Below are positions 1-62,947 of a stretch of DNA of 64,000 bases, one piece after another. Position 1 is the stretch's first letter. The number at the start of each line of letters is the position of its first letter. A program made the translations under genes and the position numbers. A model generated the notes under the pieces. The model was not told the origin of the DNA and searched no databases. It saw nothing but the letters and a program-made list of their open reading frames with translations. The stretch is from Podarcis vaucheri (lineage: Eukaryota): the NCBI GenBank assembly GCA_965113315.1, contig OZ220363.1; one strand, written 5' to 3'.

Positions 1-417
1 CACAATAGATTTTTGTGTGGAATAGAAGAAGCAGGAGACTGCATTGTCTTGTATTTCTTTCACATTTCTACTTGATAACTGAATTGGAAATTCTCTTTCA
101 CTGGTGAAGTGAATGTATTCATTTTTAATTACTGATACAGTCTCTTATTAATCATTGGTGGACCTTGCAGAGCTTCCTACGTCACAAGTACTGGTCTTAC
201 ATGTCTTTAACTTTGATCATAGGCATTTCCATCTGAAAGATTCAGCTGCCCTGATTGAGGACCCCCACCCTTTTTCTTCTTCTGTTGGTGTAAATGTAGC
301 TAATTTAGTTTACATTCACATATTGATGTCCTTCAATTTTTTTGGGAAAACCCTAATCACTGCTGTTAAAAGAAAGATGTGTCTTTAGATTTTAGAATAA
401 AAAACTACTAATGCATT

Positions 418-781
418 GGGGGACGTGGGTGGCGCTGTGGGTAAAACCTCAGCGCCTAGGACTTGCCGATTGCATGGTCGGCGGTTCGAATCCCCGCGGT
501 GGGGTGAGCTCCCATCGTTCGGTCCCAGCTCCTGCCCACCTAGCAGTTCGAAAGCACAATTAAGTGCAAGTAGATAAATAGGTACCGCTTTCTAGCGGGA
601 AGGTAAACGGCGTTCCGTGTGCTGCTCTGGTGCCAGTTCGCCAGAGCAGCTTCGTCACGCTGACCACGTGACCCGGCAGTGTCTGCGGACAGCGCTGGCT
701 CCCAGCCTCTAGAGTGAGATGAGCGCACAACCGTAGAGTCTGTCAAGACTGGCCCGTACAGGCAGGGGTACCTTTACCTTT
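418..781 (+). mobile_element. Sauria SINE, full length
   Basis: tRNA-like head with A box (TGGCGCTGTGG) and B box (GGTTCGAATCC), ACCTTT tail; near-identical to 16472-16836; short TAATGCA flanking repeat. Confidence 0.9.
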
Positions 782-3693
782 AATGCAGAATATTTTCTGT
801 TCAGTAACACAACCAATGAACAGAACTCCACGCATAGGACATTCCTGCTGGAGGAAGAGGAAATGTGATTTTTGCTTCATGCTCCCTGAAAAGTTTGGTT
901 GAAGGAACCTCAAAAGAACAGTGTGAGTGAGTGGTGGTACAACAATCTGAAGAGCAAAGGGGAATTAGTTTAAGTCACCCTCTCTCCCTCAGCAGAAGCC
1001 TCTCCTGAATCTCAGTCTCTTTCACAAATGGGACACTCTGGATGCAACCCATTGACTTTCTATCAGCTGAGGAGTGCTAGTTTCATTTGCCTGAAGCTTT
1101 TAGTATGGAAACAATAGAACTTTTGTGTTTAAACAAAGATTATGTGCTAGCATCAAATACAAAATATAAGAGAAACCACCTAAAGGTTTCTTTTCCATAA
1201 CGTTTTTCTCAAACAGCTGGTCAAAGTGGTGGAGACTTTTCAAGAGTTTCAAGTCCTAAATACTTCCTTTGCTGTTCTTTCATTTAATCGGTGGGTAAAC
1301 GATAATCTGAGATTAAATGAGGAGTTGAATATTTGCATTTATTAATCAATTAAAGGCATAATCCAAGCTGACAGCTTAATGAACCAACATTACCTACCAC
1401 TGGTGCATTTGAATCGCTGTTGCACACACCAGCCATGGCAGAAGGTGGGAACAAGGCAAATCAATGGGCCAGCATGGAACTGGTGCAGCAGTTGGGCCTG
1501 GTGTCAGCAGTGTGGCTGTCTTGGTAGGCTCATTTTGGAGCTTTCTGCTGGCTGCTGTTGATGGGGATCCCAGCAGCAGCAGTTCTGTCTACCTACAAAG
1601 CCGGAAACTTTACATCATCAAAGTGATGCTGGCAGCACTTTGCAGGCAAAGACTGGCAGGTCTCGGCAGAGGGACACCACCTAATTCGCTTACCTCCAGT
1701 CCAGTTCAAATGGGGTTTAGATTGCCCCCTAAAGTTTATGGCACTAAAAAACATCTAGTCTTCTTGCTGAATGTAATCTTTTATACTCGGGGTTCATAAT
1801 TAGCAGGGCACCAGGTGCATTTTGCACCTAAAGAATCTCCATTTGCGATCCCCTCCACAAGTCTGGGTGTCATTTGTACAAGGCTGGCACTCAAAGATTA
1901 CTGAAACGTATGTGCTTTGAAGCCTCAACGCATGTGTTAAGGATAGACAATAAAGGAGGTAAGGAGTTTGTTAAGGAGTTTAATAATGAAGAGTAGAGTG
2001 TGTTGAAAACTGAAGTTTGGTACAAATATTTTTATTGTAAAAACCAAATTAAACATGTATTAACAATTTCTGCTAAAATGTGATATTAACAATGAGTCAC
2101 TTATGTGAACTGCATATTAGTTTACACTTATCAAAATAATAACTAAAAAGGGTTGCTGACACACACACCCAGTGGCAACTAGACATTGTTTTGGCACCCA
2201 CAACCCAGGTCCCAGGAGCCATTTGGCTCCTAGCTTTTCTATGCCAGTTTATACTGCCATAAAAAGCTCAAATTGCTAGGCACAAGAATTGTAGAAATAG
2301 GAGTTCAGAAACAGAATCTAGAAGTCTGGAAGCATAGACGATTTGAGTGCTTAATGTGTGTATTCCTGTTTACTTTTAATTTGGGGAAATTTCTCAAAGG
2401 ACGAAACCTTCTCAAAGGTGTCCCCTGCCTTTTGGACCTCCTTGTAAAACTTTCTCAGGTGTGATGCTGAAAGTAGATCTTAGTTAAAGGTCTCTTGTTT
2501 ACATCCAGCTATGTTTCTACAGCAACAACATGCACCCACATAGCAAAAAAGGAAATGTTCCCTATCCAGGGATTCTTTGAATCTCTAAGGAATCTGCAAG
2601 ATCTTGACAAAAACAAGATGACTTTGAAATTCTTGATTAAAAGCTTGGGCTTAAAGGATGCAAAAAACATACTAATGTAATGAAATACGTTTGTGGGCTT
2701 TCTGGAAGCAGAACACAATTGGAAAACTTTACTGATCTTATCTTAACCTAAAGATTTGGGGGAGGAAGGTTCAATAGAAAATGGAGTGAACAGAAAAGTG
2801 CTGAGGAATATTGTTTGAATCATCCAAGCAGAGTTCTGAACTCTTCATGTATGCTAGGCAGTGTGATGTGGTGTCTACAACAAAGATTTGTACTTCCATA
2901 AATAGGTAAAAAAAATGATATTTACCTTGACCAATGCCAGGACACGGTGCTAGTCTCACTTACAGAGGATTTCATACATTGGTCACTTTGCAAAATCAAA
3001 GTATGTCTCATGTCTTATTTGAAAGCATTGAACTGTCATGGGGAAATGTCATGGGTTTTGATTTCCTTTTTAAGATGGGCCTGTCAATTCCATGCTATTC
3101 TGGTGCACTTGATAGTTTTTGGAATGAACAATTTTGTCAGTAGAAGCATTCATTTTTCGGGTCATGCTGTCTGTCTTGAAGCCCTAGACAGTATTCAAGC
3201 TTAGTTAATTACTGATGGTTATTGTATACTAAACAGGTCTGCTCAATTAGCCACCTGTTATTTTATCTAGGTGTGAAAGCTGGCAGCTAAGATGATAGTC
3301 TGACCCAAGAATGTGGCATGCATCCTAATTAAACTGTATCAGACCTAATCAGGAACAGGTCTTGAATGCAGAAATGACATGCAGGTGTTTCTTAAAGTCA
3401 AGACAAGCAGTGAAAATGATTGGTAATCCTTCAGTTAACTTCTCTTAGGAAAACTGCTTCCTTACTAGTGTCTTAATATAGGCGTGTAATTTCTAGCTTT
3501 AGGTTGCGTGTGCCATATTACTCTCTATGTCAAGAGTAATATAGGTATATAACATGGATATATTTGTGTGTGTGCGCACACACACAGAGAGAGATTATAT
3601 GTTATTTATCCTGGTAATCCTGACATAGGTTCTGAAGTAACTGAAGCATGTGTGAGGGGTCATTTGGGTTAGTATGTACAACTCTTACAGATA

Positions 3694-3957
3694 CAGTGAA
3701 CGCTCGGGTTGCGAACGTGATCCGTGTGGGATGCATGTTTGTAACCTGCAGAGTTCGCAACCCGCAGCAGCACATCTACACACGCGTGGGTTGCGATTCG
3801 GTGCTTTTGCGCATGTGCAAAGCACGATTTAGCGCTTCTGCTCATGCGCAACCGCGAAACCCGGAAGTAACCCTTTCCGGTACTTCCAGGTTTCGGCAGT
3901 CCGTAACCCAAAAAAAAACAACGCAACTTGAAGCGTCTGTAACCCGAGGTATGACTG
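3694..3957. mobile_element. Tc1/mariner (Tigger-like) MITE
   Basis: TA|CAGT...CTCGGGTT / AACCCGAG...ACTG|TA imperfect TIRs with TA TSD. Confidence 0.8.
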
Positions 3958-5130
3958 TATGTTGTTTCGAATGCTATAGATTGCAGGGGATTGGACTAGA
4001 GGAGCCTTGGGGTCTCTTCCAGCCCTACAGTTCTAGATTCTATGTATACAGAGGTCTATTTATGCAACAGGACTTCCTCTCCTTTCCCTGCAATGCTCTC
4101 AAAAATTGCTCTGGAGGGTCCTCCTACCCTCTGGAGCAGATTTTGAGGTTGCACAGGGGGTTGCCTAAGCAAGATTGTGCAAGCAAGATTGTGCTAACAG
4201 GACAGCAGCATCGGATGTGAACCTGAGGTCTTTTCACTTCATTCTATTCTTTAAGAGTACTTTGCTTGTTTGGGTCTCAAGAAGGCAGAGAAGTTGTAAA
4301 AGCATTTTGATCATAAGGAATGTACCCTTCAGTAGAATGGGGCAAGTCAGTTGATCTTCTGACTGTCCCACTTTGTGTATATTCAAAGCACTGTAGAAGG
4401 TGAAGCATTTGATGGCATACCAAGAGGTCTGCAGGCAAACAAGTATATCCTTTGCCTCATTTAGTATGGAGAATCCATAAATAGGATAAACTTGAAATTA
4501 AGCGTGTAGTGTAGTTTGTCAGCTTTTTGCGATGGGCGATGCTCTTAATAGCAGAAAACTACATCTCAGTGCCACAATAAGCTAAGCTGATGCTATCAGT
4601 GACAGTGTGCAACACAGGAGACAGGCGATACTGGGACCTGTAGTCTCTTTAAAATTAAACTGTTAATATTTCTGCAGTTCACAAGTCAGTTTTTAAATGG
4701 CCATGTCATTTCCTGCGTAGCTTCTAAGCAAGGGTGTGACTGCTTATTTGGCTTTGTAACTTGTTTTGTTTTTTTGTTTCCACATTGTTTGCTTTGTTAA
4801 AATTACTGCATGTATGTGAAACCAGTAAATGTCTGACTATGCAAAACAGAATATAACAATTTGCAAAAGATCTTTTGCATCCAATCTTGTATTTAGTGGA
4901 TTTTTTGGAGCAATTTTTTCCCTGACTGAATAATGGTCATTCACCACAGTGACTTGCAGAGACGTGAAGCTGGATGGGCTGGTCAGCTTTGAGTTGCTAA
5001 CCTTCCATTTCCAGCTCTTTCAAAATAGCCTAGCAAGTTTATAATTGAACTGATGATGCAACAGAGGAGTTAGTTAGTTTTCCCCTGCAGGAGAAATTTA
5101 GCTCAGCAGTATACTAGATAGACACAGTTA

Positions 5131-15790: not shown

Positions 15791-16471
15791 TGATGTATCC
15801 TCACCTCCAGGAGAGTGTCCACTATAACATAGGAACATAGAAAGTTGTCTTCTACAAAGTCAGACCTTGTCATGCTTGGTATTTGCTATGCTGACTGACA
15901 ACAGTTCTCCAGGGTTTGAGAGAGGGAACTCTCCCAGCCATACCTGGCAGATATAGAACCTGGCACCTTCTGTATGCCAAGCAGATGCTCTACCACTGAA
16001 CTACACTCCTCCAATTGTCATCTTGTAGAGAACCCTCATTTGGAGATGTTGGCATATAATTTGTGTTGGCCCAACGCTTATTTTGAGATGCACAATCCTA
16101 ATTCTTTATTCTTGCTTTCCCCTCTACTATTGGCATTATAATATAATAAAACTAATGTACATATAACTTGTGAAGAACTGAGACATCTCAAAACATGTAG
16201 CTTGACAAATTTTATGGATGTAGATGTCATAATTCATGAGAGAAAGATTGCTGGAGGATGGCTGGCAGCCACTTTGGGAAATGGCTTTCACAGACTTACG
16301 TCGACCAGCATATGATGTCTACTCAATTTTCTTCATTCCAAACTGTCATCTTGGTCATCCAACTGGAAATTTCTGTCAGTAACAACTTTGCTATGGAAAG
16401 CTATTACAGAATCAGGGCCATGGTTGCATAATTAATTGAGACATTAATAAGCTGAGTACTCATTTCATCTA

Positions 16472-16836
16472 GGGGACGCGGGTGGCGCTGTGGGCTAAAG
16501 CCTCAGCGCCTAGGGCTTGCCGATCGAAAGGTCGGCGGTTCGAATCCCCGCGGCGGGGTGTGCTCCCGCTGCTCGGTCCCAGCGCCTGCCCACCTAGCAG
16601 TTCGAAAGCACCCCCGGGGGCAAGTAGATAAATAGGTACCGTTTACCAGCGGGAAGGTAAACGGCGTTCCGTGTGCGGCTCTGGCTCGCCAGAGCAGCGT
16701 TGTCACGCTGGCCACGTGACCCGGAAGTGTCTGCGGACAGCGCTGGCCCCCGGCCAATAGATGTGAGATGGGCGCACAAACCCCAGAGTCTGTCAAGACT
16801 GGCCCGTTCGGGCAGGGGTACCTTTACCTTTACCTT
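16472..16836 (+). mobile_element. Sauria SINE, full length
   Basis: A/B boxes, (ACCTTT)3 tail, 12-bp TSD TACTCATTTCAT (16457-16468, 16837-16848), CpGs retained. Confidence 0.92.
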
Positions 16837-17078
16837 TACTCATTTCATATCTGATACTTCAGGAATTTAAAATATATGGAGATCATAGTGCAATACTGTA
16901 TTTGTAGCTAGAGAGTATGAGGTAAGTATTACTGATAATGTACCTCAAAGTAAGTATAGCATTTTATATTCAGTTCATTAAGTTATTTTGACTGCCATTA
17001 GCAATTATGTTCTGTAGCAATGAATCCTCCTAGTATTTCTGCTGTCTAAACTTTGCTCTAATACCTGTATGGTTTCAG

Positions 17079-21880: not shown

Positions 21881-22576
21881 AGGCTCTTCTGTTTGTAGAA
21901 GGGAAGGGAAGATCTAAATGAGTGTCTGTAGCAGGGATAATAAACGCATGGACCACATATTGCCCCTGTAAAGTTTTTTGTGGCCTACAGAGACCCCCCA
22001 CCTTGATTTGTTGGTTGTATCACCAATGTAATAGGCTGAAAATTCCACCATATTCCACCTTTTGTGTTTCTGGCATTTGAGTGCCCCACAGTTAGTCTCT
22101 GGTGTTTGAGTCCAATCCTCACTCCCCAAATCAGCAGGTTTCTACAGCTGCTTTTGCCACTGTTCTTTGCCATGTAGCTATAGAGTATCAGGCTGTGATG
22201 CTTGCAAGATCAGCCCATAAAGCTATAGTAAGCCTTGTAGCCAGCAGCAGTTTGGACAATCAGGAGAGAACGTATTTCTCTGTCAGGCATCTGAGGAAGC
22301 CGAAGCAATCCGTGGCAGATGATAGAGAGGCAACATAAACAGATAACTTAATTGAAGGTTGGCAACTTTGAGAAATTGATTAGCTTTTCTGGTTGGAATG
22401 GGGGTGCTTTGCTCAGCAGTAAATAACAAACTAACTGATGAACTTCATTATTGAGAGGGGAGAAGTGGTATTTTTATTTCCCTAAAAGGGAGTGAATGGT
22501 AATGGGATGGTTTACAAGGGTGTGCAACTAGTAGCATTTTCTAGACTCAGCCTTCTCACTTCTTACACACTGACAG

Positions 22577-22703
22577 GTTCCAAATAAATTTCGCTATCCC
22601 TTTTATTATGAAATGTGCTGGTACGTACTAGAACGCTATGTCTTCTGCATCACCAACCGTTCCCACCTAACCAAGGACTTTCAGAAGGAGTCACTCAGCA
22701 TGG
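22577..22703 (+). CDS. KDM2A: KDM2A exon 11
   Basis: [42 protein letters not shown](D); 127 bp. Confidence 0.96.
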
Positions 22704-23198
22704 GTAAGAGTTATTTTCCTGTTATTTGGCTGTCATTCTTCTGTCAGTTTCTAAAAACACTTTGCTTCCAAGCTAAACTCTCATCTGGGTTGACATTAGA
22801 ATAAAAAGAATCACTTGTTTTGATGCCTTCTGACTTCAGCAAAAGTAACCTCTTAATTAAGCATTTTCTCCAAGATTGGTGGAATATGCCAGAATACAGA
22901 TTACATATTTCTACAGTTTGTAGTGGTTTGTGTTCCCCATTGATAGGCAAGTGGCAAATGGGTCACAGCTGCTGTGTGCTGTATTTTCCCAACTTTGAAA
23001 CGCAGCAGAGTATTGGCTGATACACTTGCATGCTCACTCTTTCCAAGAGTGTGTGCACAACAGCTAAGGAGCTGTACTCCATATCCCCCACTGTGGTGGC
23101 TGAGTGAATAGTACAAATACTGAAACACCTTAATTCTCCCCAAAGCTGTTCCACAGGCAGATCTGCTCAATTATCACTGTTCTACCCTTTACATACAG

Positions 23199-23596
23199 AT
23201 ATGGAGTTATGCGGCTTGGAGTCAGGCACTGTGGAGGAAGATGATGCAGCAGCAGAAAAGGAATCGCGCCGCCCTGTCACTAGGCGGTCGGTCCTCACTA
23301 GCCCTGTAGCCAATGGTGCTAATCTAGACTATGAAGAACTAAATAAAGGCTGCCGGAGTTTGCCAGATCTCAAGAGAACTCTCTCCATGGACTCAGAGTC
23401 CAGTCGAGGCTCTCACAATGGCCAAGCCTGGGACACTCATAGCAACAGCCCTCATAAGGGCAACAAGGTGCATCTGACCCAATTTGAGCTTGAAGGTCTG
23501 CGTTGTCTTGTAGACAAGCTGGAGTCTTTACCCCTACACAAGAAGTGTGTACCCACAGGCATAGAGGATGAGGACGCCCTTATTGCAGATGTTAAG
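23199..23596 (+). CDS. KDM2A: KDM2A exon 12
   Basis: MELCGLESG...HLTQFELEGLRCLVDKLESLPLHKKCVPTGIEDEDALIADVK|gtatg; 398 bp. Confidence 0.95.
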
Positions 23597-25242
23597 GTAT
23601 GTTGTAAAGTCAAGAGTTATCTCATTTTTGTGTGTAGCACTTTTTCCCCAGCACCTGTGACAACCCACCAATGTTTGTTTACATGGGCCGTGTGCAAGCC
23701 TAAGTGATTTGTTGCTGTGGCCAGTTTCTCTATTGGAGTTGATCAGCTGCTTATGCATCTGTTAATATTGTAAAGTTATCTAGCATGGCTCTGTGGGTGT
23801 GTTGGGCTCTGCCACCTCCGTAGTGTGTGAGCACAGTCATCAACTGGATTACATTTTTTACTAGTGCTTCACTTCTGGTCCTGGGCCATACGAAGTTGTT
23901 TCATGCCATTGGGAGTTGAAGAAAGACTTGCCCTCCCAAGCTTTATCCATATGAAACAATGCACGTTGATCAGCAGTGTAATTATATAGCCTCTTGTCGC
24001 TTTCTCTGTGTGAATCCCTGAATGGTAATGAGGTGCTTTGAAAATGGCTCTGAAAATCTCTCTTGAAACTTGGCCCTCTTGTTATGGCTTCTTTGGCTAT
24101 GATTTGTTCCTGACCTTGTTTGTTTCCATGTTACCAGAAAGGTGTACACACACCTAACACACTTGCATAAACATCTCACTAAATCAAAATTTCCAAAAGT
24201 ATGCACAAAAGAACTTGACAGATGAAGTGGCAGTAATCACTATCTGTCCAAGGGTTTGTTTATTCTTCAAGAAAGCAGAAGGCAAGCAGTGTATCCACAG
24301 CTTCATTTTTTAATAAGTATCTTCTTCCTTTGGTCTGCTTACACACTCTTCTTTCTCCTTGCGCTTCTCTATCAGGTGTGGTGGCATTGAGGAAAAGATG
24401 GGCTTACTTGGCCAAATGGGCTAGCAAAACAGCTTTATCCAACTCAAAAGGCATCAGGATTGAATGCTGTTCTCTTTATTGGAGACTTGCTGGAAGAAAT
24501 AGATAAGGCTAAAAATGGTAGAACCATGAGCTACTTACCTCCCTGGAGGGAATAAAAGCTGTCACTTATTCACCTTTCGTTTCACTATAGTACATGCAAT
24601 GTTGTCTGACCTGTCTGTAGAAAAAAGGTGATTAACCCCAAGGTTTCCAATGGAAAGGGAGCACTCAAACTTGACTGGGGTCATAAAAAGCCTAGCACAG
24701 ATAGCTTGTGTGCTCACATGGCAGCACTGTTTCACTTCTGTTCACTTTGCTACAGCTTGCTTTGTTATAGAAACCCATCCACCTGTTTCAAAATGCCAAC
24801 AGAAGTAAGAAAATTGAGACCTGGCTGTAAAAAAAAAAATGCTTTCTTGATCTTGTGCATTTATGACAATTCTCTAGCATGCTAAAGCAATGTCCAGACT
24901 AGAGCAGGAAAAGTGTTGAACATTTTCATTGGCAATACTATGTACAGGCATTTCACTTCTCCATAGCTTCTATAGGATGTCCCCTTGAATTCAGTCAATT
25001 ACTGATATTTATGAGACTTGGGGCCGCTTCATACATTACCCTTTGTAGGTAAGGTACCCTTTGTACTTGGGTACTTAATTCCAAAGTATAAATACATGCA
25101 GATATCATCACATATAAGCAGTGCACACATGTATAAACTTCATATCTTGCCAGCAAATTACACAGGAGCTGGACTCTGATTCTGAATGTAGATATACTTG
25201 AACACCATTTTGAAAATAAATGCACTTGGACACCATTTTATA

Positions 25243-25437
25243 GATTCACAGAATCATAACATTGTAGAGCGGGAAGGGCCCCTGAGGGCATCTAGTCCAA
25301 CCCCTTGCCGTGCAGGAATCTCAACTAGATCATATATAACAGATGTCTATCCAACTTCTGCTTAAAAACCTCTAAGAAAGGAGAGCCTATCACCTCTCAT
25401 GTAAGTCTGTTCCACTGTTCCAAAGCTATTCCTGTCA
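25243..25437 (-). mobile_element. CR1 LINE 3' end
   Basis: Reverse complement of CR1 terminus (..GGGTTGGACTAGATG..ATTCT); matches 44722-44865. Confidence 0.75.
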
Positions 25438-25909
25438 TACATTTCATTTATGTAGGTTCTGAAATCTGCTCCAAACAGGCCTTAAGGATAAAATGGAGGA
25501 AAAAGGTTGATAAAAGGCATATCAAAGAATATAGGTATATTTCATATTGGCATGGTGCAAGGTGATGTGCCATTTGGCAGCTGTGACACACAGAAGATTG
25601 CAGCTGTGAATGTGAGCACTTTTAATGTCTGAGACTGGCACTTTTTTAAGACCCAGAGAGCTTGTAACCTAGTGCATATTTGCTCTACCATTTGTGGTAG
25701 AAGCTTTACAAATACTTGACATCTAGCTTAACTACTTTTATTTCAGCTTTTAATGTGTAGGCGGAGGTTATAACCAGATAGTACTCAACTAGTCAGTTAT
25801 GCCAGTTCACCTAGTAATACCTGTTTGACTGGTCTAGCACCTGCTTATCGTTGCTAGTTGCCGTCTCAAGTTTGCTAACACATTGAATTCTGAAACCTAC
25901 AAAAATGTT

Positions 25910-25911
<2 letters not shown>

Positions 25912-25947
<36 letters not shown>
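25912..25947. repeat. (GT)n microsatellite
   Basis: 18 units, followed by short (AG)n. Confidence 0.95.
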
Positions 25948-25949
<2 letters not shown>

Positions 25950-26149
25950 GAGAGAGATCTTGCAGCATTGAAGAGGGTAATTCAGACGTCTTGCTTAAAT
26001 AGAACGTTGCGGTGTCTAGGTTGGAGGAGGCGGTCTTAAGATTTCAAATAGATTGAATAGCTAGGGGGTTAATATGTTGCAACAAAGTATCTATTTCCAC
26101 CTCTCTGATGAGGAACGGCATGGACACCTTGGGCATGTGCCTTCTTCTG

Positions 26150-27400
26150 AGTTAAAACGTCATTGTGGGTGTTGAGAGGGCGTCGTCGTTAAGCGGCAGT
26201 TGCTTCTGGGGGCTTAGCGAGGTAGGGGGGCATGGAAAACGGGGACGTAGCTGCAGCGCACCGGGCGGGTGAAAAGCTTTCTGTGCTGTTCTCTATGAAG
26301 TCTGCCCCAGCCAGCCCTCGGGTGCTGGCCCCGGATTCTCCAATTGCAGTAGTGGTGGGGGAGGGGGGGAGAGGCTGCCTCGGCTGCCGCCACGACCAAT
26401 CAGCAAGCAGCCAGCGGCTTGGCCCGGCCCCCTCCCAACTCTGCAGCAGAACGGCTTTGCCGTCCTGTTCCTGGCTTGGTTTTCTCGGTCTCCTTTCTCT
26501 TCTGCCATCTTCCGTTGCAAAGCATTGCTGGGAACTGCATGTGGGTGACGCAGCAGCATTGTTTGCGGGCGCAGGAAGCTTCCGCTGAAGGGTTCTGGAA
26601 GGAACATGCTGCTGGCGCCGGGCAGCCGCTGGTGCTGGCGGAGTTGGGATCGCGCTTCCTGAGCCGCTCGTGTGAAGGAGGAGGATTGTGCTGGAGTTAA
26701 AATTACATAGTGGGGGGAGGATCGAAACCGAAGCCCTGCAACTTGGCAGAATAGAAAACAAAGGGACTCGGAAACTTCCTCCGAGACTCTCGGCACCTTC
26801 CGTGGAACGAAGCACGCAAGGTCAGGCAGACACGAACCTGGGGGGGGGGGGTTCAGCAGGGTTCCGCCGGCGGGTGGGGGAGGGAGAGAGCTGCTTCCCA
26901 CGTCCGTGCAGGATAGGATCACCCGGGACTCCCCTCCCACGGTTCCCCTCTGCGTTTGTTTGAAGGGTACTTTCCATGGGAGGAGTTCGTAAGCTTGGAA
27001 TGCAAGGACTCCCTTATATCGGTTGTTACAGGGTCGGAGCCCGCGTCTTCCCTTCCCAAGTTGGTTTGCATTCTTTGGGTGTTTGGGAACGGCACGTTTT
27101 CTACTTCAGATCAGTGATAGACTTTCGGGGCGGGGTGGGGGCTACTCTTTCCTAACATCCGCGTGAGTCGGTGAAGTTGGGTGTTCCCACCCCCGGAGTT
27201 TGCACGTCTGTGCAGCCACCCCTAAAGTGCCCCAGGCTGGTGCATATAGTGCGTTTCCCCTTCTGCCCCGTGAAGCATGTGTCTTCATGCCCTCAAATGC
27301 CGACCTTTCCTCATAAGTAGACGCTGTAAGGGAGAGGGTGGGGCTTGGGGACTGCACATTCTGCTGGGCTAGCCGAACAGCCACTTCCTTCCACCCACAA
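26150..27400 (+). promoter_or_regulatory. Intragenic CpG island, alternative promoter of KDM2A short form
   Basis: Sharp rise in GC/CpG within intron 12; CCAAT 26396-26400, TGACGCA 26546-26552, GC boxes; position matches the known mammalian KDM2A-SF promoter. Confidence 0.82.
26560..26820 (+). other. KDM2A: Alternative non-coding first exon (exon 1b) of KDM2A short form; 5' end uncertain
   Basis: Donor CGCAAG|gtcagg at 26820/26821; 3' end resembles the recalled human alternative first exon. Confidence 0.65.
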
Positions 27401-28871
27401 CCTTCTCTTGAAGGGTGGAGAAGCAGCTGTAAAGCGGGGTGGATACAAACTGATGGTGCTTCTTTTTAAATTAAACCGGATTTAAGTTTTTTATTTTTTT
27501 GAAAAATCCAGTTACTTTACAAACATTTAAACTGCAATCCCACACCCATTTACTTGAGAGTAGACCCCATTGCATTTTGTGGACTTGCTTTTCAGTAGGT
27601 AGATAAATATTATATTAGCATCTATCCTGAGTCAAACACATTGAGTTGCTTTCTTCCCTCCCCCGTTACTTAAATTGAGGTGCTGTTCTATTTAAAATAA
27701 TGATCCAGTTAAAAAATGTGGGGGGAAAGTCAGGCATTAATAAACATTCTGGCTGATTAATTACTAGCCCTTGATTATGGAAAGCTCTGGACATTTAATC
27801 TTAAATGCTTTTGCTTGGTGTTGTTACATGCTGGTAGAGAGCCAAACATTCTTTATCATAATGCATTTCTTTAAGCAGATACAGTTTGCAGCAGAAAAAG
27901 CATGTATGCTGCATGACCAGGTATTTTGGACTGTGTTCCCTGGGTAATAAGAAGACTTGCTCTATTTAGTTGTAGACAGATGTTTTAATTGTTTGCAGCA
28001 ACCAATTAACATTGCTTATTTAGGAACCATTAATTGGACAGTTGGAAACTTCATTTTAAATTGTCGTTGTGAATTGGACACCTATCTTGGTGACTTTAAA
28101 TTAATCTGTCCTACTGGAAAGCAACTTGCCTGTATAGGCAGCTTCAGATGGGAATATGAATCCCCTTTCTCTGGTAAGTGCCAGGGAGAGTGAGCCCAGC
28201 CCATGCAGTGTTCTTTGCCTCTTGGCAGCTAGAGACACTGCACTCCCTGCACACGGGGATGCCAGCAACGTAACCATAGTAACCTCAAGTAAATAAAGCA
28301 CATCTGAAATGGCAGTCAAGAGTGGGTGGGTAAGGTGGACGACAGAATCAGGAACAAGGCTAAAAGAGCCAGGCGGGAGGAGATGCTGTCTCAGGATGGC
28401 AACCACATTTGCTAGAACCTGGTCATTGGTTGGTGGCATAGAAATTATCTAGCCCATGTGTGAGATAGAAAATAGTATGGCTGAGAATACTGTGTTTCTG
28501 TGCTGTTTTGAGAAGTGTAACTTCTGGGATAAACATGGGCATACTGGTTGGGTGGAGGGCTTTGCTCCATTGTGGAAGAGACCACACTTAACCCAGACCT
28601 TCATTTCTGATCATGTTTCATCATATTATTTTCCCTAACACAATGACTTTAAGTGTGTGAGTCATGAGGCAAGGGATCACTGGTCAAATCTAATCTTTGT
28701 TAGGTATCCTTAGGCAAACCACATCTCTTGACCCTCATCAGTAACATGGGGACAAGAACACTGATCTGCCTTCCAGAATTGTTGTTAGGATTACTAAGAA
28801 AATGTACTGAATTATTCTGAAATACCATATAAGTATAAAAACTGATTTTTATTTTCTTAACCCTGCTATAG

Positions 28872-28955
28872 CTGCTGCTGGAGGAGTACGCAAACAGCGA
28901 TCCCAAACTGGCACTTACTGGAATTCCTATTGTCCAGTGGCCAAAGAGGGATAAG
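28872..28955 (+). CDS. KDM2A: KDM2A exon 13
   Basis: LLLEEYANSDPKLALTGIPIVQWPKRDK; tatag/gtaaa flanks; 84 bp. Confidence 0.95.
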
Positions 28956-29449: not shown

Positions 29450-29716
29450 CTCAAGCTTCAGGCTCGGCCAAAGTTAAGATTACCTACCATCCCGATCACC
29501 AAGCCACACACCATGAAACCCGCGCCACGGCCAGCAACTGTGAGACCTACAGTCTCTCCTATAGTGTCTGGTGCCCGCAGAAGACGGGTGCGATGTCGTA
29601 AATGCAAGGCCTGTTTGCAAGGCGAATGTGGCATGTGCCACTACTGCAGGGATATGAAGAAGTTTGGGGGGCCTGGTCGTATGAAGCAGTCCTGTGTACT
29701 ACGGCAGTGCTTGGCG
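29450..29716 (+). CDS. KDM2A: KDM2A exon 14 (CXXC zinc finger; internal ATG at 29513)
   Basis: LKLQARPK...MKPAPR...[47 protein letters not shown]; KFGG and KQ CpG-binding motifs; 267 bp. Confidence 0.97.
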
Positions 29717-30310: not shown

Positions 30311-31916
30311 GTAAGAAATGGATTATCAAACATTGGCACATGCCTTCTGTGTTGCATGCTACTCTTGGGTAATGAAGAAGCACACTGTTTGCACCTAGCC
30401 TGTACCTAAGGCATTGGGGAGAGAAGGTTCTTTGGGTATCCTGGGTGTTTATCCTTGTGCACTTTGGGAAGGCTTAGTAGGAGCCACACGAGTGTGAGGT
30501 GAGCACTAGGAGAGCCTCTTCTGTTGAGTAAAAGAGTTCCACCTGGAAATGAGCACTGGTGACACCATACAATGTTAACTACATGATGGAGCCACTTTAC
30601 AGCTTTTCCACCGCCACCTTCTTGGCATCTACAGAGAGCTCATCAGCACATGAACTGTAACATCCTGCTGGAGAAACAGTTCCTGGAAGGGCAGCAAAAT
30701 CAACTTCCATCAACCAAGCAGTGGACATGTTATCAATGGCAGAAACTGACAAGACTGCCCTGGGAGAAATACAATTGCAAGATCCTGCGTAGAGTTGTGC
30801 CTGCTGCCCCAGCAAAGAGCATCCCAGTGAAGGCAAGAAGGGGTGGGGGTAAGGGACTGGTAATCTCTTATTACCATCACAGGAGTTATTATGATCTGGC
30901 ATTCTGTTAGAATAGTGCCCTGCAGCACTTCATTCCAGCCTTGGGGAACTTGGACCATGGCAGTCAGGGGCCTGTTTCTCCTACATGTTTAGTGATGGAG
31001 ATCTGCTAAATAAATAAATAAGCCATAGCTTAGCAGAGTGAAGAAATTGGCTGAACCCTTCCCTTAACATCTGTTTGAAAATTGAATCTAACAGCACATT
31101 CTTGAATAGGTAAATTAAGATGGTGATACAAATAAACACTGCATGGTTCAAGTCTAGTATAACAATTGACTCGTTCCTCACATCAGCTACTTATCTTCAA
31201 AGTTGGGTGCATGTGTGCATCTAGTGTTCTCACATGTATTCTGCAGCTTGGTGACATTTTATTAGATCTACATAACCCTTCAGCTTTCACTAAGTGACAA
31301 AGTCCAATTTCTTCAACCTTAATGTAGCTAACGTGAGGGCAGTTTGGAACAGAGTTCATACTATAGCCAAATGAATGGATTCAAATGGTATGGGTCCAGC
31401 ATGTCCTTCAAGGAAGTCATCTGGGAAGAGAGACGGTACTTCCAGTAACTTCACTTGCAGGTGCTCTGGAATGCCAATAGGATTTTCTGGGCCCAGTACA
31501 CTCACTTTATGTAGGTTGGGACCTTTTGCCTACCCATAAGCTGACAAACTGCTACCTATATACGTACTCTAAGTAATTGTAGAATTGCAAGCTTTCATGT
31601 AGTATATTGCTACCTAATTATTTTCTAGACTAAATTTTTTGTTTGACTACTAGCCGGGCATAGTTTCTACTGAGAGGTCCCATTAAGTTCAATGGGACTT
31701 ACTCCCAGATAAATGGCTATAAGTTTATAGCCTAGTTAGGTAAGGAAGAGGAAGGAGACTCTCCCCACACGCCATTCTTTTTAATGGACCCTAATTAAAT
31801 CATCCAAAAATATACTCATATCACCTCTCTACTTTGCTGGCACCATTATTGAAAATGGTTGTGTGTTTTTTTACTGGTGGGAAGCGAGGAAAATTAAGTA
31901 AGATGGATTCAATTTA

Positions 31917-55400: not shown

Positions 55401-55598
55401 ACTATTTTATAAAATATTTCAGGAACATAACAGTTGCACTCAGAAATGTATTATTTCTGCTATTATTTTGTAGTACAAGATAACAAAGGCCTTTCTGCAA
55501 CTATTTTATCAAATATTTCAGGAACATAACAGTTGCACTCAGAAATGTATTATTTCTGCTATTATTTTGTAGTGCAAGATAACAAAGGCCTTTCTGCA
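55401..55598. repeat. 99-bp tandem duplication
   Basis: 55401-55499 and 55500-55598 differ at about 2 positions. Confidence 0.92.
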
Positions 55599-58516: not shown

Positions 58517-58610
58517 AGGGTAGCCACGTCAGTCTCTTGCAGCAAAAGCAACCAGAAGTCTTGTAGCGCCTTAAATACTGTACTAATTTCTTCGTTAGCC
58601 TTCAAGGGGT
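58517..58610. mobile_element. Degenerate Penelope-like terminal fragment
   Basis: GGTAGCC..GTC..GCAG..TAGCGCCTTAAA.AC layout parallels the left arm of 52678-52913. Confidence 0.45.
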
Positions 58611-58639
58611 CACACTGCTCCTTTGTCGTGCAGACCTTC

Positions 58640-60200
58640 AGGATGTCCTTGAGAGACCAGAGGCCAAACGTGGATGTCAAAATTATGCGAAACGGGTTGC
58701 AAGGAATTATAGTTGTGGCCAATATTTTATGCGGGATGCTACCGGACGTGCTAAGGCAACGGCCGGGTAAAATCATGGCCCGTTAGGCCTCCGAGCGCTC
58801 CTCGATTTGAGCGCCCGCCGCAGCGTATTGCCTGGGGCCGCGCTTGAATCGAAAGGGTCTGAAAGACACCCGGCCTGCGCCAAGCCAGCTGCAAGTCTCC
58901 CCTGGGCCTCCAGAGGGCGGCCTCGGGCGACTAACTTTCTTCTCTCTGTGTGTGTCTATGTACAAAGCAGGCTTCCCTCGAGGGGCGGCTGTTGCTTTAA
59001 GCTGGCCCTGGAGCGAGCGGAGAGGGGAAGCCAGAAGCTGCGCGGCGGGCCCCGGAGGTCCTTTCCCCCTGCGGAGAAACAAAACCACCTACGGGCGGCA
59101 ACAGCAGCAGGAGGAAGAAGGAGGAGGAGAGCGTGTGCGAGTTTCGGATCCGCTCGGCTCCCGCCTTAAGCGCCCCGCATTGAATCAGCGCGTGGAGCTC
59201 GAGAGCTCCTCGGCTGCGCTTGCCTCGGGCACTTGCGCGACGCTGCTTCTCCGCCTTGGATCGCAAGCAGAGGAAGAAGAAAAGCGCTGACAGATAAAGG
59301 CAGCAAGCCGCCGCCGCCACCCCCCACCCCTGCGCCGCCGCCGCCGCTCCGCGTTGACAGGCAGCGGGAGCAACAGCAGCGGCCGCGGCAGCCCTCCCTG
59401 CACGCGCGCGCGCAACACACACAAGACACACACACACACACTCACTCAGGACACACACCGAGAGAGCCCGCCAGCCCTGGAGGAGGAAGGCAAGCCAGGA
59501 GCGGAGGGCAGCGGGGCCAAGCCGCAGCCCATGAACTAAGGAAGGGCCGCCGCTTCTCTGCACGGGCAATCATGTGGGTCTGTTTGTAAGAGGGGTTGGG
59601 GGGCCAGATCCCCTCTCTTCGCCTCCCCCCCTCGCTCTCCCTCCCCTCCCCCTAGCACAGGCGGCCACACACACACACACACCCCGACCGGGAGGAGGAG
59701 GCGGCGGCGAGGGAGCCGCAGAGGCCGCTGGAATAATAAGAGAATTGATTGTGAAAAAGGAAAGCAGAAGAAATATTTCCTGGCAAGATGGCCGACTTGG
59801 AGGCTGTGCTCGCCGATGTGAGCTACTTGATGGCTATGGAGAAAAGTAAATCCACTCCGGCAGCCCGGGCCAGCAAGAAGATCGTGCTACCTGAGCCGAG
59901 GTGAGCCCGGCAAGGGGGGCAGGCGGAGGGGGCAGGTGCGGCGCCGGGGCCCCGCGCGAGGCGCGCCGGGCTTAGGATGGGCGCTGGGCGTTTGTGTACG
60001 CGAGCGAGCGCATAAATGGGTCTGTATATGACTGAGCTTCGCTCTTCTGAAATGCACCGAGCCGACTTGCCCTTGGCCCAAGCAGCAGGGTCCGTGATCT
60101 ACCCCGTCCATGTAGCGGGGTGGAGTGGGGTGGAAAGAGGGCTCGCTAAAGCGGCGTCTTTCCGTGTACGTGGTTGTGTTGATATAGTGTGGGCATGATG
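58640..60200 (+). promoter_or_regulatory. CpG island promoter / 5' UTR of GRK2
   Basis: CpG-dense, GCC-repeat-rich, spans ATG exon. Confidence 0.88.
59788..59900 (+). CDS. GRK2: GRK2 (beta-adrenergic receptor kinase 1) first coding exon; gene continues past the window
   Basis: gcaagATGg; [39 protein letters not shown]|gtgag; 113 bp. Peptide fits GRK2 or GRK3; GRK2 chosen by synteny with KDM2A. Confidence 0.92.
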
Positions 60201-62947
60201 ATGGATTGTCAGGGTGTCCTGTCTCTGCTTCCTAATTCTTCATTCGGCTGCTCAGATCCTTGGAGATCATTCCCCCAGCACCTCTCGCAGTAGCAAACCC
60301 CCTCCTTCTGTCTTTTTCCCTACCCACACGTCACAATTCCACCCACCCCAACACAAACACACATAGTGATTCTCTCTGTGTATGTGTAATATGCAATTGT
60401 GTTAACCACAGCAGAAAAGCAGGCTAGTAAATCAGGCTGTATATATGCCTATATAGTGCTTTTTTCTGAGCAGTCCAGCAACTGTCTTGCTGGGTGTTAT
60501 GAGGAGCATACAGCTTGGCTCTGGCCGTGCCTGGAGTCGGCCTCAAGATGCCCTAACCACTGTCTTCTCTTTTGGGTGGGTGGTTTGTTTGTTTTTGTTT
60601 TTGAAAATCTGTCTGTACAGACCTGTTCAGTCCAGCGCTGTGTCTTGGTAATGTGCTGTTAGATAGCGACCAGGCCTTTGCCCACCTTGCAGCTGCTCTG
60701 AGTTGAAGCAGGAACTGGGGCTGCACAAACAACGTTGCAAGCGTGCGCAAATGCAGTGCAAGGTCACCATCGTGCAGATAAGGGGAAATGTCTTGGGCAG
60801 GGGCTCTGCTTCATGTAAGGGCATTTTCTTGCTGGGAGACACAAGTGGGAGCATTAAGTCAAAAAATCTGACTGGTCATCCAGGTGGGTCAAAGGTGCTA
60901 TGGTTTTGGCCAACCAACCCTTAACTCTGCTTCCTGGCAGCAGTTACCAAGGGCAACAGGGTGGGGCCTGACAAGCATCCTGCACCTTCAGCACATGGGC
61001 AAATGGAGGCCTTCCTCGCTCTCCTTTCTTCCCTTCCACCTCCCATGTGACATCTGGCTTACCCTACCCTTCCCTGTTCTAGCCAATAACCTTGGGTTGT
61101 CCCCATTGTAGGAGAAGTCTCTTCAAGCAGAACTGCTCCCCTGCCACTGAAGGCAGGGCGGAGGGTCTCTGAGAAAGCTCCAATGGGCCCCTTTCCGCAA
61201 GAAATGGCAAGCGGCCCTTTCAGAGGATGATGCAGATGTGTTACCATGGCGATGCCTGAAAGCCTCAGCAGCCTCTGTGCTCTTTCCCCCCCCCCACAGG
61301 GTTGCTGGTTTCGGTATGGAAGTGCCCACATGGGAACTTTGGGTGAAGTTCCATAGCCTTTGGAGGAAATAATTTTGGGATGCATAGTGACGGTCCAGAG
61401 AGCAGCCCCTTCACTTGCATCACATCTCAGCTAATAGTTGCTCACTGGCAACCCCCTGCCTGCCTGAGTCACATCCCTGAGTCCAGTTTAAGATAACTGT
61501 CTTGGGGTGGCAGAATTTAAGCCATCGTTTGCCCTTCTGCCCCTCCCTCATCACTTTCTGCACTACTTGTAATGACAGTGTAACTGCTGCTGCCTTCTCC
61601 TCCTTTCCTCTTCCTCAAAGTACACCAGGGAGGCCTTCAATTCTCCCAGCTCAATAGCCATCTATTTTGGGGGCAGGAGAGGGAGTAGAGGAGTGAAAGG
61701 CAATATTGACAATATATCTACACGTAGGAGGTACTTGTGAAATTTGGCTTTTAGGAAATTGAGCATTTTATCTGTTAAAGAGCTGGGGAGAGCTAAGGGG
61801 TCAGATTACCAATTAGGGAAGCAAGACTATGCCCTAGAAGAAGACTAAGGATTAAGAGGCGTACATGGAGGTCTTGCTGTGATCACAGCACAGGGGTCTT
61901 ATCGATAGCTTACTGATAGGCAGAAATAAGGTAGCTGGAATGGTAAGGAAAGCATGGGGAGGAGTGTCAAGGATATGTACAGAATTGCATTTGTTTTGGA
62001 TTCAAGACACCTGCTGAAAACAAGCATTAGAGACTGCTTCTTCCCATTAGCTAGGGAGGATCAGATACATCTCTTCTGCACATCTCACTGTGGGAACTTT
62101 GCTGGGGGACTTCTAAAGTGTGGCCCCATAAATTTTGCCCGGGAAGCTGATTTGGAGCAGGAGGAGAACAGGGTAATTCCAGAACAGGTTAATTCAGGCA
62201 GAAGCTGAAGAAATTCTTAGTTCCCCTAATCTGAATGCGTAATAACATGTAGACCTTTTGGTACAGCCCAATAGAAATCACATGGAGGAGGAAACTGGGT
62301 TTGGGTGATGAGCAGAGTGTGTGTTTTACATTAAAATATGTAAGTCAATATATTTGCATATTTATTTTTTGCATAATTTGCTCTGTTCCTAGCAGTCATG
62401 CGAGGCGGTGCAGGGAAGCAGTGCAGGGCACAGAATCCCCACCTCTTGACCACTAGAAATTTGACTCGTCCTCCCTCTGGCCTTGCACACATATACTGTT
62501 GTAGATCAAAAATACAAGAAACTTGCTTTTTTTTAATGAAAAGCAAGATTTGGGGGACCAAGTATAATTTATTTCCTTGCCTTGCATGATACCATCTTGG
62601 CACAGCATGCATAGTCGTGTTCACAAATCACATTACCTTGCTTCTCAGAGACAGAGCATTCACTCTCAGACACTCCATAGGAAGGTGAGGCTTAACAGAA
62701 ACCACAAGCAGTGTGGCCCTAGCATACGTTATCTTTCATCATTGTTGCTTTGCTGGTGGTTGACCTAACAGCTTCCGTGTGTGTGTCTGTCTTGAAACAT
62801 AAGGGACATATAAATCACACCCTTGGAGCCTAGGTGGTGCCTCCATTTTTTTTTCATGGGCTATCTATTGGAATTGGGACAAAAATGCAGATACATCCTC
62901 AGGAAGTTGTCCAGGATTGGAACAATAGAAGGATGGAGATTCTAAAG

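What the first reader, a model, noticed from the sequence alone, without database searches (positions are those of the whole stretch)
23597..28871. Intron 12 as a split point: stop/poly(A) module directly upstream of an internal promoter
Seen: order is exon 12, candidate terminal exon + AATAAA (24.4-24.6 kb), (GT)18, CpG-island promoter/exon 1b (26.2-26.8 kb), exon 13. The intron lies between the catalytic half and the CpG-binding/F-box half. Inference: one locus could output full-length, eraser-only and reader/scaffold-only proteins, with upstream termination relieving read-through interference on the internal promoter. Since KDM2A CXXC binds unmethylated CpG islands and the enzyme removes H3K36me2, it could also keep its own internal island open (feedback).
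Basis: inference. Interest (0 to 1): 0.7.

Follow-up and report, generated by a model that had tools for sequence, protein, structure and literature searches.

The report
Lizard KDM2A short-form internal promoter
This intron of a lizard's KDM2A gene holds a CpG island that likely acts as the second promoter already known from mammals, which would make the short, demethylase-free form of the protein; the stop/poly(A) site upstream of it is unproven and probably little used.

Summary
The CpG island (26045-27330) ends an exon-like segment at donor AAG|GT 26820. Gecko and snake gene models splice the homologous peptide to exon 13, and a profile of mammalian exon-1b peptides ranks this site first, though weakly. 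Translation would start in exon 14 and give 619 aa, matching annotated 618-620-aa short forms of snakes, a bird and mammals. This is the published KDM2A-SF promoter. The proposed terminal exon has a very strong acceptor (1st of 1,962 intronic AGs), but AATAAA density is ordinary. No protein record carries its tail, one RNA run of a relative shows no reads on it, and a contig runs through its signal; the junction itself could not be tested. The intron is not a clean split point: it cuts mid-helix, 24 residues before the end of the crystallised catalytic module. In the closest analogue (H13/Mcts2), deleting the poly(A) site left the internal promoter unchanged, and KDM2 proteins constrain rather than open CpG-island promoters. 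Verdict: already known, low interest.

The parts
23199..23596 (+). KDM2A exon 12 (ends ...LIADVK, phase-0 donor)
   Evidence: 99% identical to Podarcis muralis KDM2A; exon 11-12 joint 22702>23198 seen in 7 reads of X23 and 5 of X21
24350..24375 (+). Strong acceptor-like site (polypyrimidine tract, TATCAG|G)
   Evidence: Best of 1,962 intronic AGs by a matrix trained on this gene's 19 acceptors; use not shown
24376..24575 (+). Candidate alternative last exon (would add VWWH then stop); 3' end assumed from the AATAAA
   Evidence: Sequence only; 0 reads in X23, about one read in X21, low-depth contigs in X1 and X6 like those over other intron parts
24551..24556 (+). AATAAA, one of four on the + strand in this intron
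   Evidence: X6 contig 24424-24839 and X1 contig 24418-24604 run past it
24625..24633 (+). Donor-like site AAG|GTGATT that could close a 252-base stop-containing cassette exon
   Evidence: 6.8 bits, within the 4.6-9.9 range of the gene's true donors; use not shown
25235..25450 (.). Dispersed repeat, SINE-like by size (family not identified)
   Evidence: 3,961 candidates, 40 of 40 scored match, the 39 other copies at 78-86%; pile of foreign reads
25912..25947 (.). (GT)18 microsatellite
   Evidence: one of 5 dinucleotide runs of 8 or more units in the window; no role shown
26045..27330 (.). CpG island, likely the KDM2A-SF internal promoter
   Evidence: the two parts searched (26045-26450, 26600-27330) matched only themselves in the genome, whereas other CpG-rich intron patches are repeats
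26755..26820 (+). Conserved 3' end of likely exon 1b, donor AAG|GTCAGG; start of the exon unknown; no in-frame ATG
   Evidence: Gecko model 18 of 22 residues identical, E 9e-10; king cobra 9 of 12; top site for a mammalian exon-1b profile
28872..28955 (+). Exon 13; its first 24 codons end the crystallised catalytic module; no ATG
   Evidence: Matches the C-terminal 24 residues of chains 4qwn_B, 7uva_B, 9phv_D, 2yu1_A
29513..29515 (+). ATG in exon 14 (ACCATG), predicted start of a 619-aa short form
   Evidence: First ATG after the 26820 donor; 8 named isoforms of 618-620 aa start at this methionine

Best explanation
[quoted passage not shown] The acceptor and AATAAA at 24.4-24.6 kb are probably a cryptic or rarely used site, not a built-in stop module, and the (GT)18 run is probably incidental. 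Shown here: the island, the conserved segment and donor, the absence of an in-frame ATG before exon 14, and the exon border inside the catalytic module. Inferred: promoter activity, the 1b-to-13 splice in this species, and low use of the upstream site.
For: Mammalian KDM2A-SF starts at exon 1b in intron 12 (PMC7000146; PMC7588095). Gene models of Gekko kuhli, Ophiophagus hannah and Crotalus adamanteus join the homologous peptide to exon 13 at the same donor. A profile of 11 mammalian exon-1b peptides ranks the two tiles holding this site first of 4,260 six-frame tiles and ends exactly at 26820. RefSeq lists 618-aa isoforms in Crotalus tigris and Pseudonaja textilis, 619 aa in a bird, and a 620-aa human record. 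For low use of the upstream site: ordinary AATAAA density; 0 of 218 proteins with the tail; no X23 reads at 24304-24575 against depth about 6 on exons 11-12; an X6 contig running 280 bases past the AATAAA.
Against: No RNA read on exon 1b's 3' part or on the 1b-13 joint was examined. Over the island's 5' part (26072-26450), X23, X21 and X6 had no depth and X1 one low-depth contig. The mammalian profile hit is not significant alone (E 0.4-0.9), and only 2 of 12 mammalian peptides hit the site singly. The reptile models that use the donor are predictions. No short form appeared among the listed lacertid proteins (15 of 18 cluster members listed; 5 of 5). For the upstream site: it is the strongest acceptor-like site in 29 kb of intron, the X23 bound is loose (under about 40% use), reads on the 3' half of exon 12 were absent so the joint could not be seen, three of four runs have some sequence there, and a deer-mouse record ends two residues after exon 12 (P0061).
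Confidence: 0.68

Rival explanations
1. The promoter is as above, and the 24376 site is a real minor last exon whose use is caused by the active island downstream: transcription from the internal promoter hinders elongation from the main promoter and so favours intronic polyadenylation, as at H13/Mcts2. The output is more short form and less full-length enzyme; the truncated protein is a by-product of doubtful activity.
For: Acceptor ranks 1 of 1,962 with AATAAA 175 bases on. Intragenic island activity correlates with upstream termination in 1,722 (21%) mouse island/host pairs (PMC7470969 section 26) and causes it at H13/Mcts2 (PMC13309782 abstract). Peromyscus UniRef record of 495 aa ends ADVK-LT. 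A similar strong acceptor with AATAAA lies in the homologous intron of the KDM2B paralogue (L003:9362).
Against: No reads in X23; contig read-through in X6; no lizard or snake record with such a tail among those fetched; chance of such a site somewhere in the gene's introns is about 34%; no TGTA element in the candidate exon (read by eye); no DNA similarity between the KDM2A and KDM2B sites; Kdm2a not named in the one supplement searched.
Confidence: 0.19
2. 24376-24627 is a stop-containing cassette ('poison') exon spliced between exons 12 and 13 and removed by nonsense-mediated decay, which tunes full-length KDM2A without touching the short form.
For: Strong acceptor plus a donor of ordinary strength at 24627; stop at codon 5; decay would explain the lack of reads and of protein records.
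Against: No joint or loose end at 24376 or 24627 among those listed (89 loose-end rows were not shown). The X6 contig crosses 24627 unspliced and carries 6 listed changes in 24639-24799 and 2 in the candidate exon, no sign of special conservation.
Confidence: 0.08
3. One reading: regulated termination at 24.5 kb gives a working eraser-only protein and shields the internal promoter from read-through, and KDM2A keeps its own island open.
For: The order of the elements fits. Intragenic islands gain H3K36me2 when KDM2 long forms are removed (PMC6753492 passage).
Against: Poly(A) deletion at H13 left the nested promoter unchanged. KDM2 loss raises expression from island promoters and leaves accessibility unchanged. 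The truncation removes 24 residues of the crystallised module, 89% conserved across 22 orthologues, and cuts a helix predicted with local confidence.
Confidence: 0.05

Closest known systems
Mammalian KDM2A-SF (short form from alternative exon 1b in intron 12; PMC7000146, PMC7588095, PMC6753492)
   Same: Same gene, same intron, CpG-rich region, exon ending at a phase-0 donor joined to exon 13, product without JmjC that keeps CXXC, PHD, F-box, LRR; predicted start at the same exon-14 methionine as the human 620-aa record.
   Different: Many mammalian records read exon 1b as coding (721-724 aa); in the lizard the donor frame has a stop at 26752 and no ATG after it, so only the 619-aa form is predicted. 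Activity in the lizard was not shown here.
H13/Mcts2 and other intragenic CpG island/host pairs with upstream intronic polyadenylation (PMC13309782, PMC7470969)
   Same: A poly(A) signal upstream of an intragenic island promoter on the same strand.
   Different: There the island drives another gene and termination is shown; here it drives an isoform of the same gene and termination is not shown.
KDM2A-N782 (PMC6445129)
   Same: A C-terminally shortened KDM2A isoform.
   Different: It keeps JmjC, CXXC and PHD and lacks only F-box and LRR; it does not end in intron 12.
KDM2B-SF
   Same: Paralogue with an internal CpG island and a short form lacking JmjC.
   Different: In this genome the non-repeat island of KDM2B lies one intron further on, after the exon-13 homologue, and holds a candidate coding first exon.

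Membership tests
KDM2A gene (orthologue) | JmjC, CXXC, PHD, F-box domain order and closest relatives named KDM2A | tested here: met
   paralogues lie on other contigs
KDM2A-SF promoter / exon 1b | Lies in the intron between exon 12 (…ADVK) and exon 13 | tested here: met
   PMC7000146
KDM2A-SF promoter / exon 1b | Homology to mammalian exon 1b, ending at a donor joined to exon 13 | tested here: inconclusive
   Clear to gecko (E 9e-10) and snakes; to mammals top-ranked and in register but E 0.03-0.9
KDM2A-SF promoter / exon 1b | Product lacks JmjC and keeps CXXC, PHD, F-box | tested here: met
   Predicted 619 aa from 29513; Pfam on the snake 618-aa and human 620-aa records
KDM2A-SF promoter / exon 1b | Transcription starts in the island; H3K4me3/H3K27ac; 1b-13 splice in RNA | not testable with these tools
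   No chromatin or cap data; reads were laid only on 22400-26450
Alternative last exon / intronic poly(A) site | 3' splice site and poly(A) hexamer with no strong donor between them | tested here: met
   Acceptor 24376, AATAAA 24551, first donor-like site 24627
Alternative last exon / intronic poly(A) site | Exon 12 spliced to the exon and RNA ends just after the hexamer | tested here: inconclusive
   No joint, no pile of ends, read-through contigs; but low depth and missing reads on the 3' half of exon 12
Alternative last exon / intronic poly(A) site | Conserved or annotated product | tested here: not met
   0 of 218 fetched proteins carry the tail; one rodent record has a different 2-residue tail
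Intragenic island-driven termination (H13/Mcts2 type) | Upstream poly(A) use rises with island transcription | not testable with these tools
   Needs many tissues with 3'-end data

The most novel reading that the evidence does not exclude
KDM2A intron 12 works as a one-way switch in amniotes: when the short-form promoter fires it forces main-promoter transcripts into an alternative last exon just upstream (VWWH-stop in this lizard, LT-stop in a deer-mouse record). This cuts the enzyme mid-helix, so the locus trades demethylase for the demethylase-free form in one step.
Probability: 0.12. Interest if true: 0.55.

Novelty: already known. Interest (0 to 1): 0.17.

Why it matters
The supported part adds little: it extends a published mammalian internal promoter to a lacertid lizard, and snake and bird annotations already list the same short form. 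It does indicate that exon 1b has been kept across squamates and probably amniotes as a splice-ready, mostly non-coding exon. If the upstream last exon proved real and tied to the promoter, it would give a mechanism that couples the ratio of long to short KDM2A, which the review calls uncharacterised (PMC7000146, 2018).

Tried and rejected
Run search listed no holder on record as RNA; this is no evidence either way. Protein search with another frame of the exon-1b segment found nothing at E<=10 among 20 candidates. Rfam on 23597-26450: no match at E<=0.1. Fold of the exon-12-terminated deer-mouse protein failed (pLDDT 30) and says nothing. The fold of the crystal construct was poor overall (38) and is used only for the one confident helix. 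The bacterial promoter/terminator scan is not relevant to a vertebrate. Short KDM2A records ending after exon 12 were mostly rejected as evidence: 33 of 218 begin with V, the pattern expected from reading through the GT donor, and 10 stop at the donor itself, 9 of them labelled 'partial'. Other CpG-rich patches in the gene's introns (336-857, 16356-16905, 3610-4037) were rejected as promoters because they match dispersed repeats. (GT)18 as a functional element: no evidence. Literature: 'KDM2A' with 'intronic polyadenylation' gave 0 papers; two searches listed nothing on KDM2A intron-12 termination by title or abstract start (20 of 30 and 15 of 36 listed). The primary KDM2A-SF papers PMC5703260 and PMC2876952 are not held, so their isoform maps and supplements, which may bear on a mammalian intron-12 ending, were not seen. 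Earlier scan findings: none relevant.
Full report
Gene. Exon 12 of the window translates to a peptide 99% identical to Podarcis muralis KDM2A and 96% to Lacerta and Zootoca, so the source is a lacertid lizard. The finding is the 5,275-base intron between exons 12 and 13.

Observation. The elements are present: acceptor at 24376, AATAAA at 24551, (GT)18 at 25912-25947, CpG island at 26045-27330. Between the AATAAA and the island lie about 1.5 kb with a second AATAAA (25215) and a dispersed repeat at 25235-25450. The two parts of the island that I searched matched only themselves in the genome (the tool warns that this does not prove rarity), whereas the CpG-rich patches in other introns match repeats.

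Internal promoter. Mammalian KDM2A-SF starts at an alternative exon 1b in intron 12 and lacks the JmjC domain (PMC7000146, passages; PMC6753492, passages). In the lizard island a segment ends at AAG|GTCAGG, 26820. A Gekko kuhli model has a 22-residue insert before exon 13 that matches 26755-26820 at 18 of 22 residues (E 9e-10); an Ophiophagus model matches 9 of 12 (E 0.011). A Crotalus adamanteus model ends at the same donor and also weakly matches 26322-26372 (E 0.9 and 0.09). These are predictions, so they show conserved sequence and a usable donor, not transcription. Of 12 mammalian exon-1b peptides, 2 hit 26701-26820 among their three best matches (E 0.03, 0.8). A profile of 11 of them ranked the two tiles holding this site first of 4,260 and ended at its last position exactly at 26820, with E 0.4-0.9. 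The donor frame has a stop at 26752 and no ATG after it, exon 13 has no ATG, and the first ATG is 29513 in exon 14, which predicts 619 aa. Eight named records of 618-620 aa start at this methionine: five mammalian, two snake, one bird. Against: none of the listed lacertid proteins is a short form (15 of 18 members listed; 5 of 5), and no RNA was examined over the 3' part of exon 1b or exon 13.

Candidate last exon, sequence. It would add VWWH and stop. The hexamer is ordinary: 4 in this intron against 1.0 per kb in all mapped introns; a quarter of intronic AGs have one 50-400 bases downstream. The acceptor is not ordinary: best of 1,962 intronic AGs, above 18 of 19 true acceptors scored leave-one-out, by a matrix trained on only those 19. 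In 208 kb of control sequence (both strands of the window and of 40 kb around two paralogues), 14 other sites scored as high, at least one a true exon border, and 3 of the 14 had AATAAA downstream. That gives 0.08 expected in this intron and a 34% chance of one somewhere in the gene's introns. A donor-like site at 24627 allows a poison-cassette reading too.

Candidate last exon, RNA and proteins. Four of 24 listed runs, all from related organisms, were laid on 22400-26450. X23 (stranded raw reads, 12% of the run read) had depth about 6 on exon 11 and the 5' part of exon 12 and none at 24304-24575, which bounds use only below about 40%. X21 had roughly one read there and three reads running from exon 12 into the intron. 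X1 and X6 are contigs only guessed to be RNA. X1 had low-depth pieces over 18 of 30 bins, one at 24418-24604. X6 had a piece from 24424 to 24839, through both the AATAAA and the 24627 donor. No joint to 24376 and no pile of ends was listed, but X23 had no reads on the 3' half of exon 12 (the tool drops human-like reads), so the joint was not testable. Of 291 proteins fetched, 218 hold the end of exon 12: 163 go on to exon 13, 33 begin with V as donor read-through would, 10 stop at the donor, 12 do something else, and none has VWWH. One of the 12, a Peromyscus UniRef record of 495 aa, ends ADVK-LT; its basis is unknown to me and it is the best hint that rodents may have a last exon in this intron.

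The intron is not a clean domain border. The construct crystallised with substrate is residues 36-517 less a loop, and the peptide contacts the C-terminal domain among others (PMC4197961, passages). Its second chain matches lizard residues 488-555, and exon 13 supplies the last 24 of them. These are 89% identical across 22 orthologues, against 65% for the exon-12 loop. In a fold of the crystal construct that was poor overall (pLDDT 38), a helix at 419-432 spans the junction after residue 427, with local confidence 88. A protein ending at exon 12 would therefore be cut mid-helix; whether it is active is untested.

Mechanism. The closest system is an intragenic island with upstream intronic polyadenylation. 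Island activity correlates with upstream termination in 1,722 (21%) mouse pairs (PMC7470969, abstract and section 26; Kdm2a not found in its one supplement). At H13/Mcts2 nested transcription causes the termination, and deleting the poly(A) site left the nested promoter's expression, methylation and H3K4me3 unchanged (PMC13309782, abstract and section 17). On feedback, loss of KDM2 long forms raised H3K36me2 at intragenic islands, but demethylase activity was dispensable for normal expression, and removing the CXXC domains raised expression without changing accessibility (PMC6753492, abstract and passages). Any loop on this island is thus more likely weak or negative.

Verdict. Most likely (0.68) an orthologous KDM2A-SF promoter with a cryptic or rarely used acceptor/hexamer upstream. 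All four share the promoter. The supported part is published; I found no paper on intron-12 termination of KDM2A, but two primary papers were not held. Interest 0.17.

Noticed in passing
L002:4633-5149 and L002:4930-4995 (KDM2B paralogue, G000:C38): The non-repeat CpG island of KDM2B lies after the exon-13 homologue (L002:611-688) and holds an ATG-started 22-codon segment ending at CAG|GT; that it resembles the KDM2B-SF first exon is from my recall. If so, the two paralogues' short-form promoters sit in adjacent, non-homologous introns, and KDM2B's lies beyond the whole catalytic module.
   Followed up: partly
L003:9362: A strong acceptor-like site with AATAAA 86 bases on, giving a 6-codon tail and stop, lies in the KDM2B intron homologous to KDM2A intron 12; no DNA similarity to the KDM2A site.
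   Followed up: partly
P0061 (Peromyscus UniRef record, 495 aa): KDM2A ending two residues after exon 12 (LT-stop), not of the donor read-through type; its transcript support is unknown.
   Followed up: no
window 30632-30841: An alternative in-frame exon of about 66 codons between exons 16 and 17, present in longer Podarcis and Lacerta isoforms (1259-1265 aa).
   Followed up: no
mammalian exon-1b peptides P0160-P0175: Primate/horse and rodent/bat exon-1b peptides differ in a way that looks like local frame shifts while the end is kept, which suggests that the coding of exon 1b is not under protein selection.
   Followed up: partly
window 336-857, 16356-16905: CpG-rich copies of one ~360-base repeat, 87% alike, also near both paralogues (up to 95%), so a young family that mimics CpG islands.
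   Followed up: partly
window 58588-60343: A large CpG island (o/e 0.7-0.85) about 18 kb after the KDM2A stop codon, probably the promoter of the next gene; not identified.
   Followed up: no
window 24403-24411 and 24531-24540, - strand: Two close matches to the 5' splice-site consensus on the antisense strand inside the candidate last exon (read by eye).
   Followed up: no
window 55401-55598: A 99-base unit duplicated in tandem, 97% alike.
   Followed up: no
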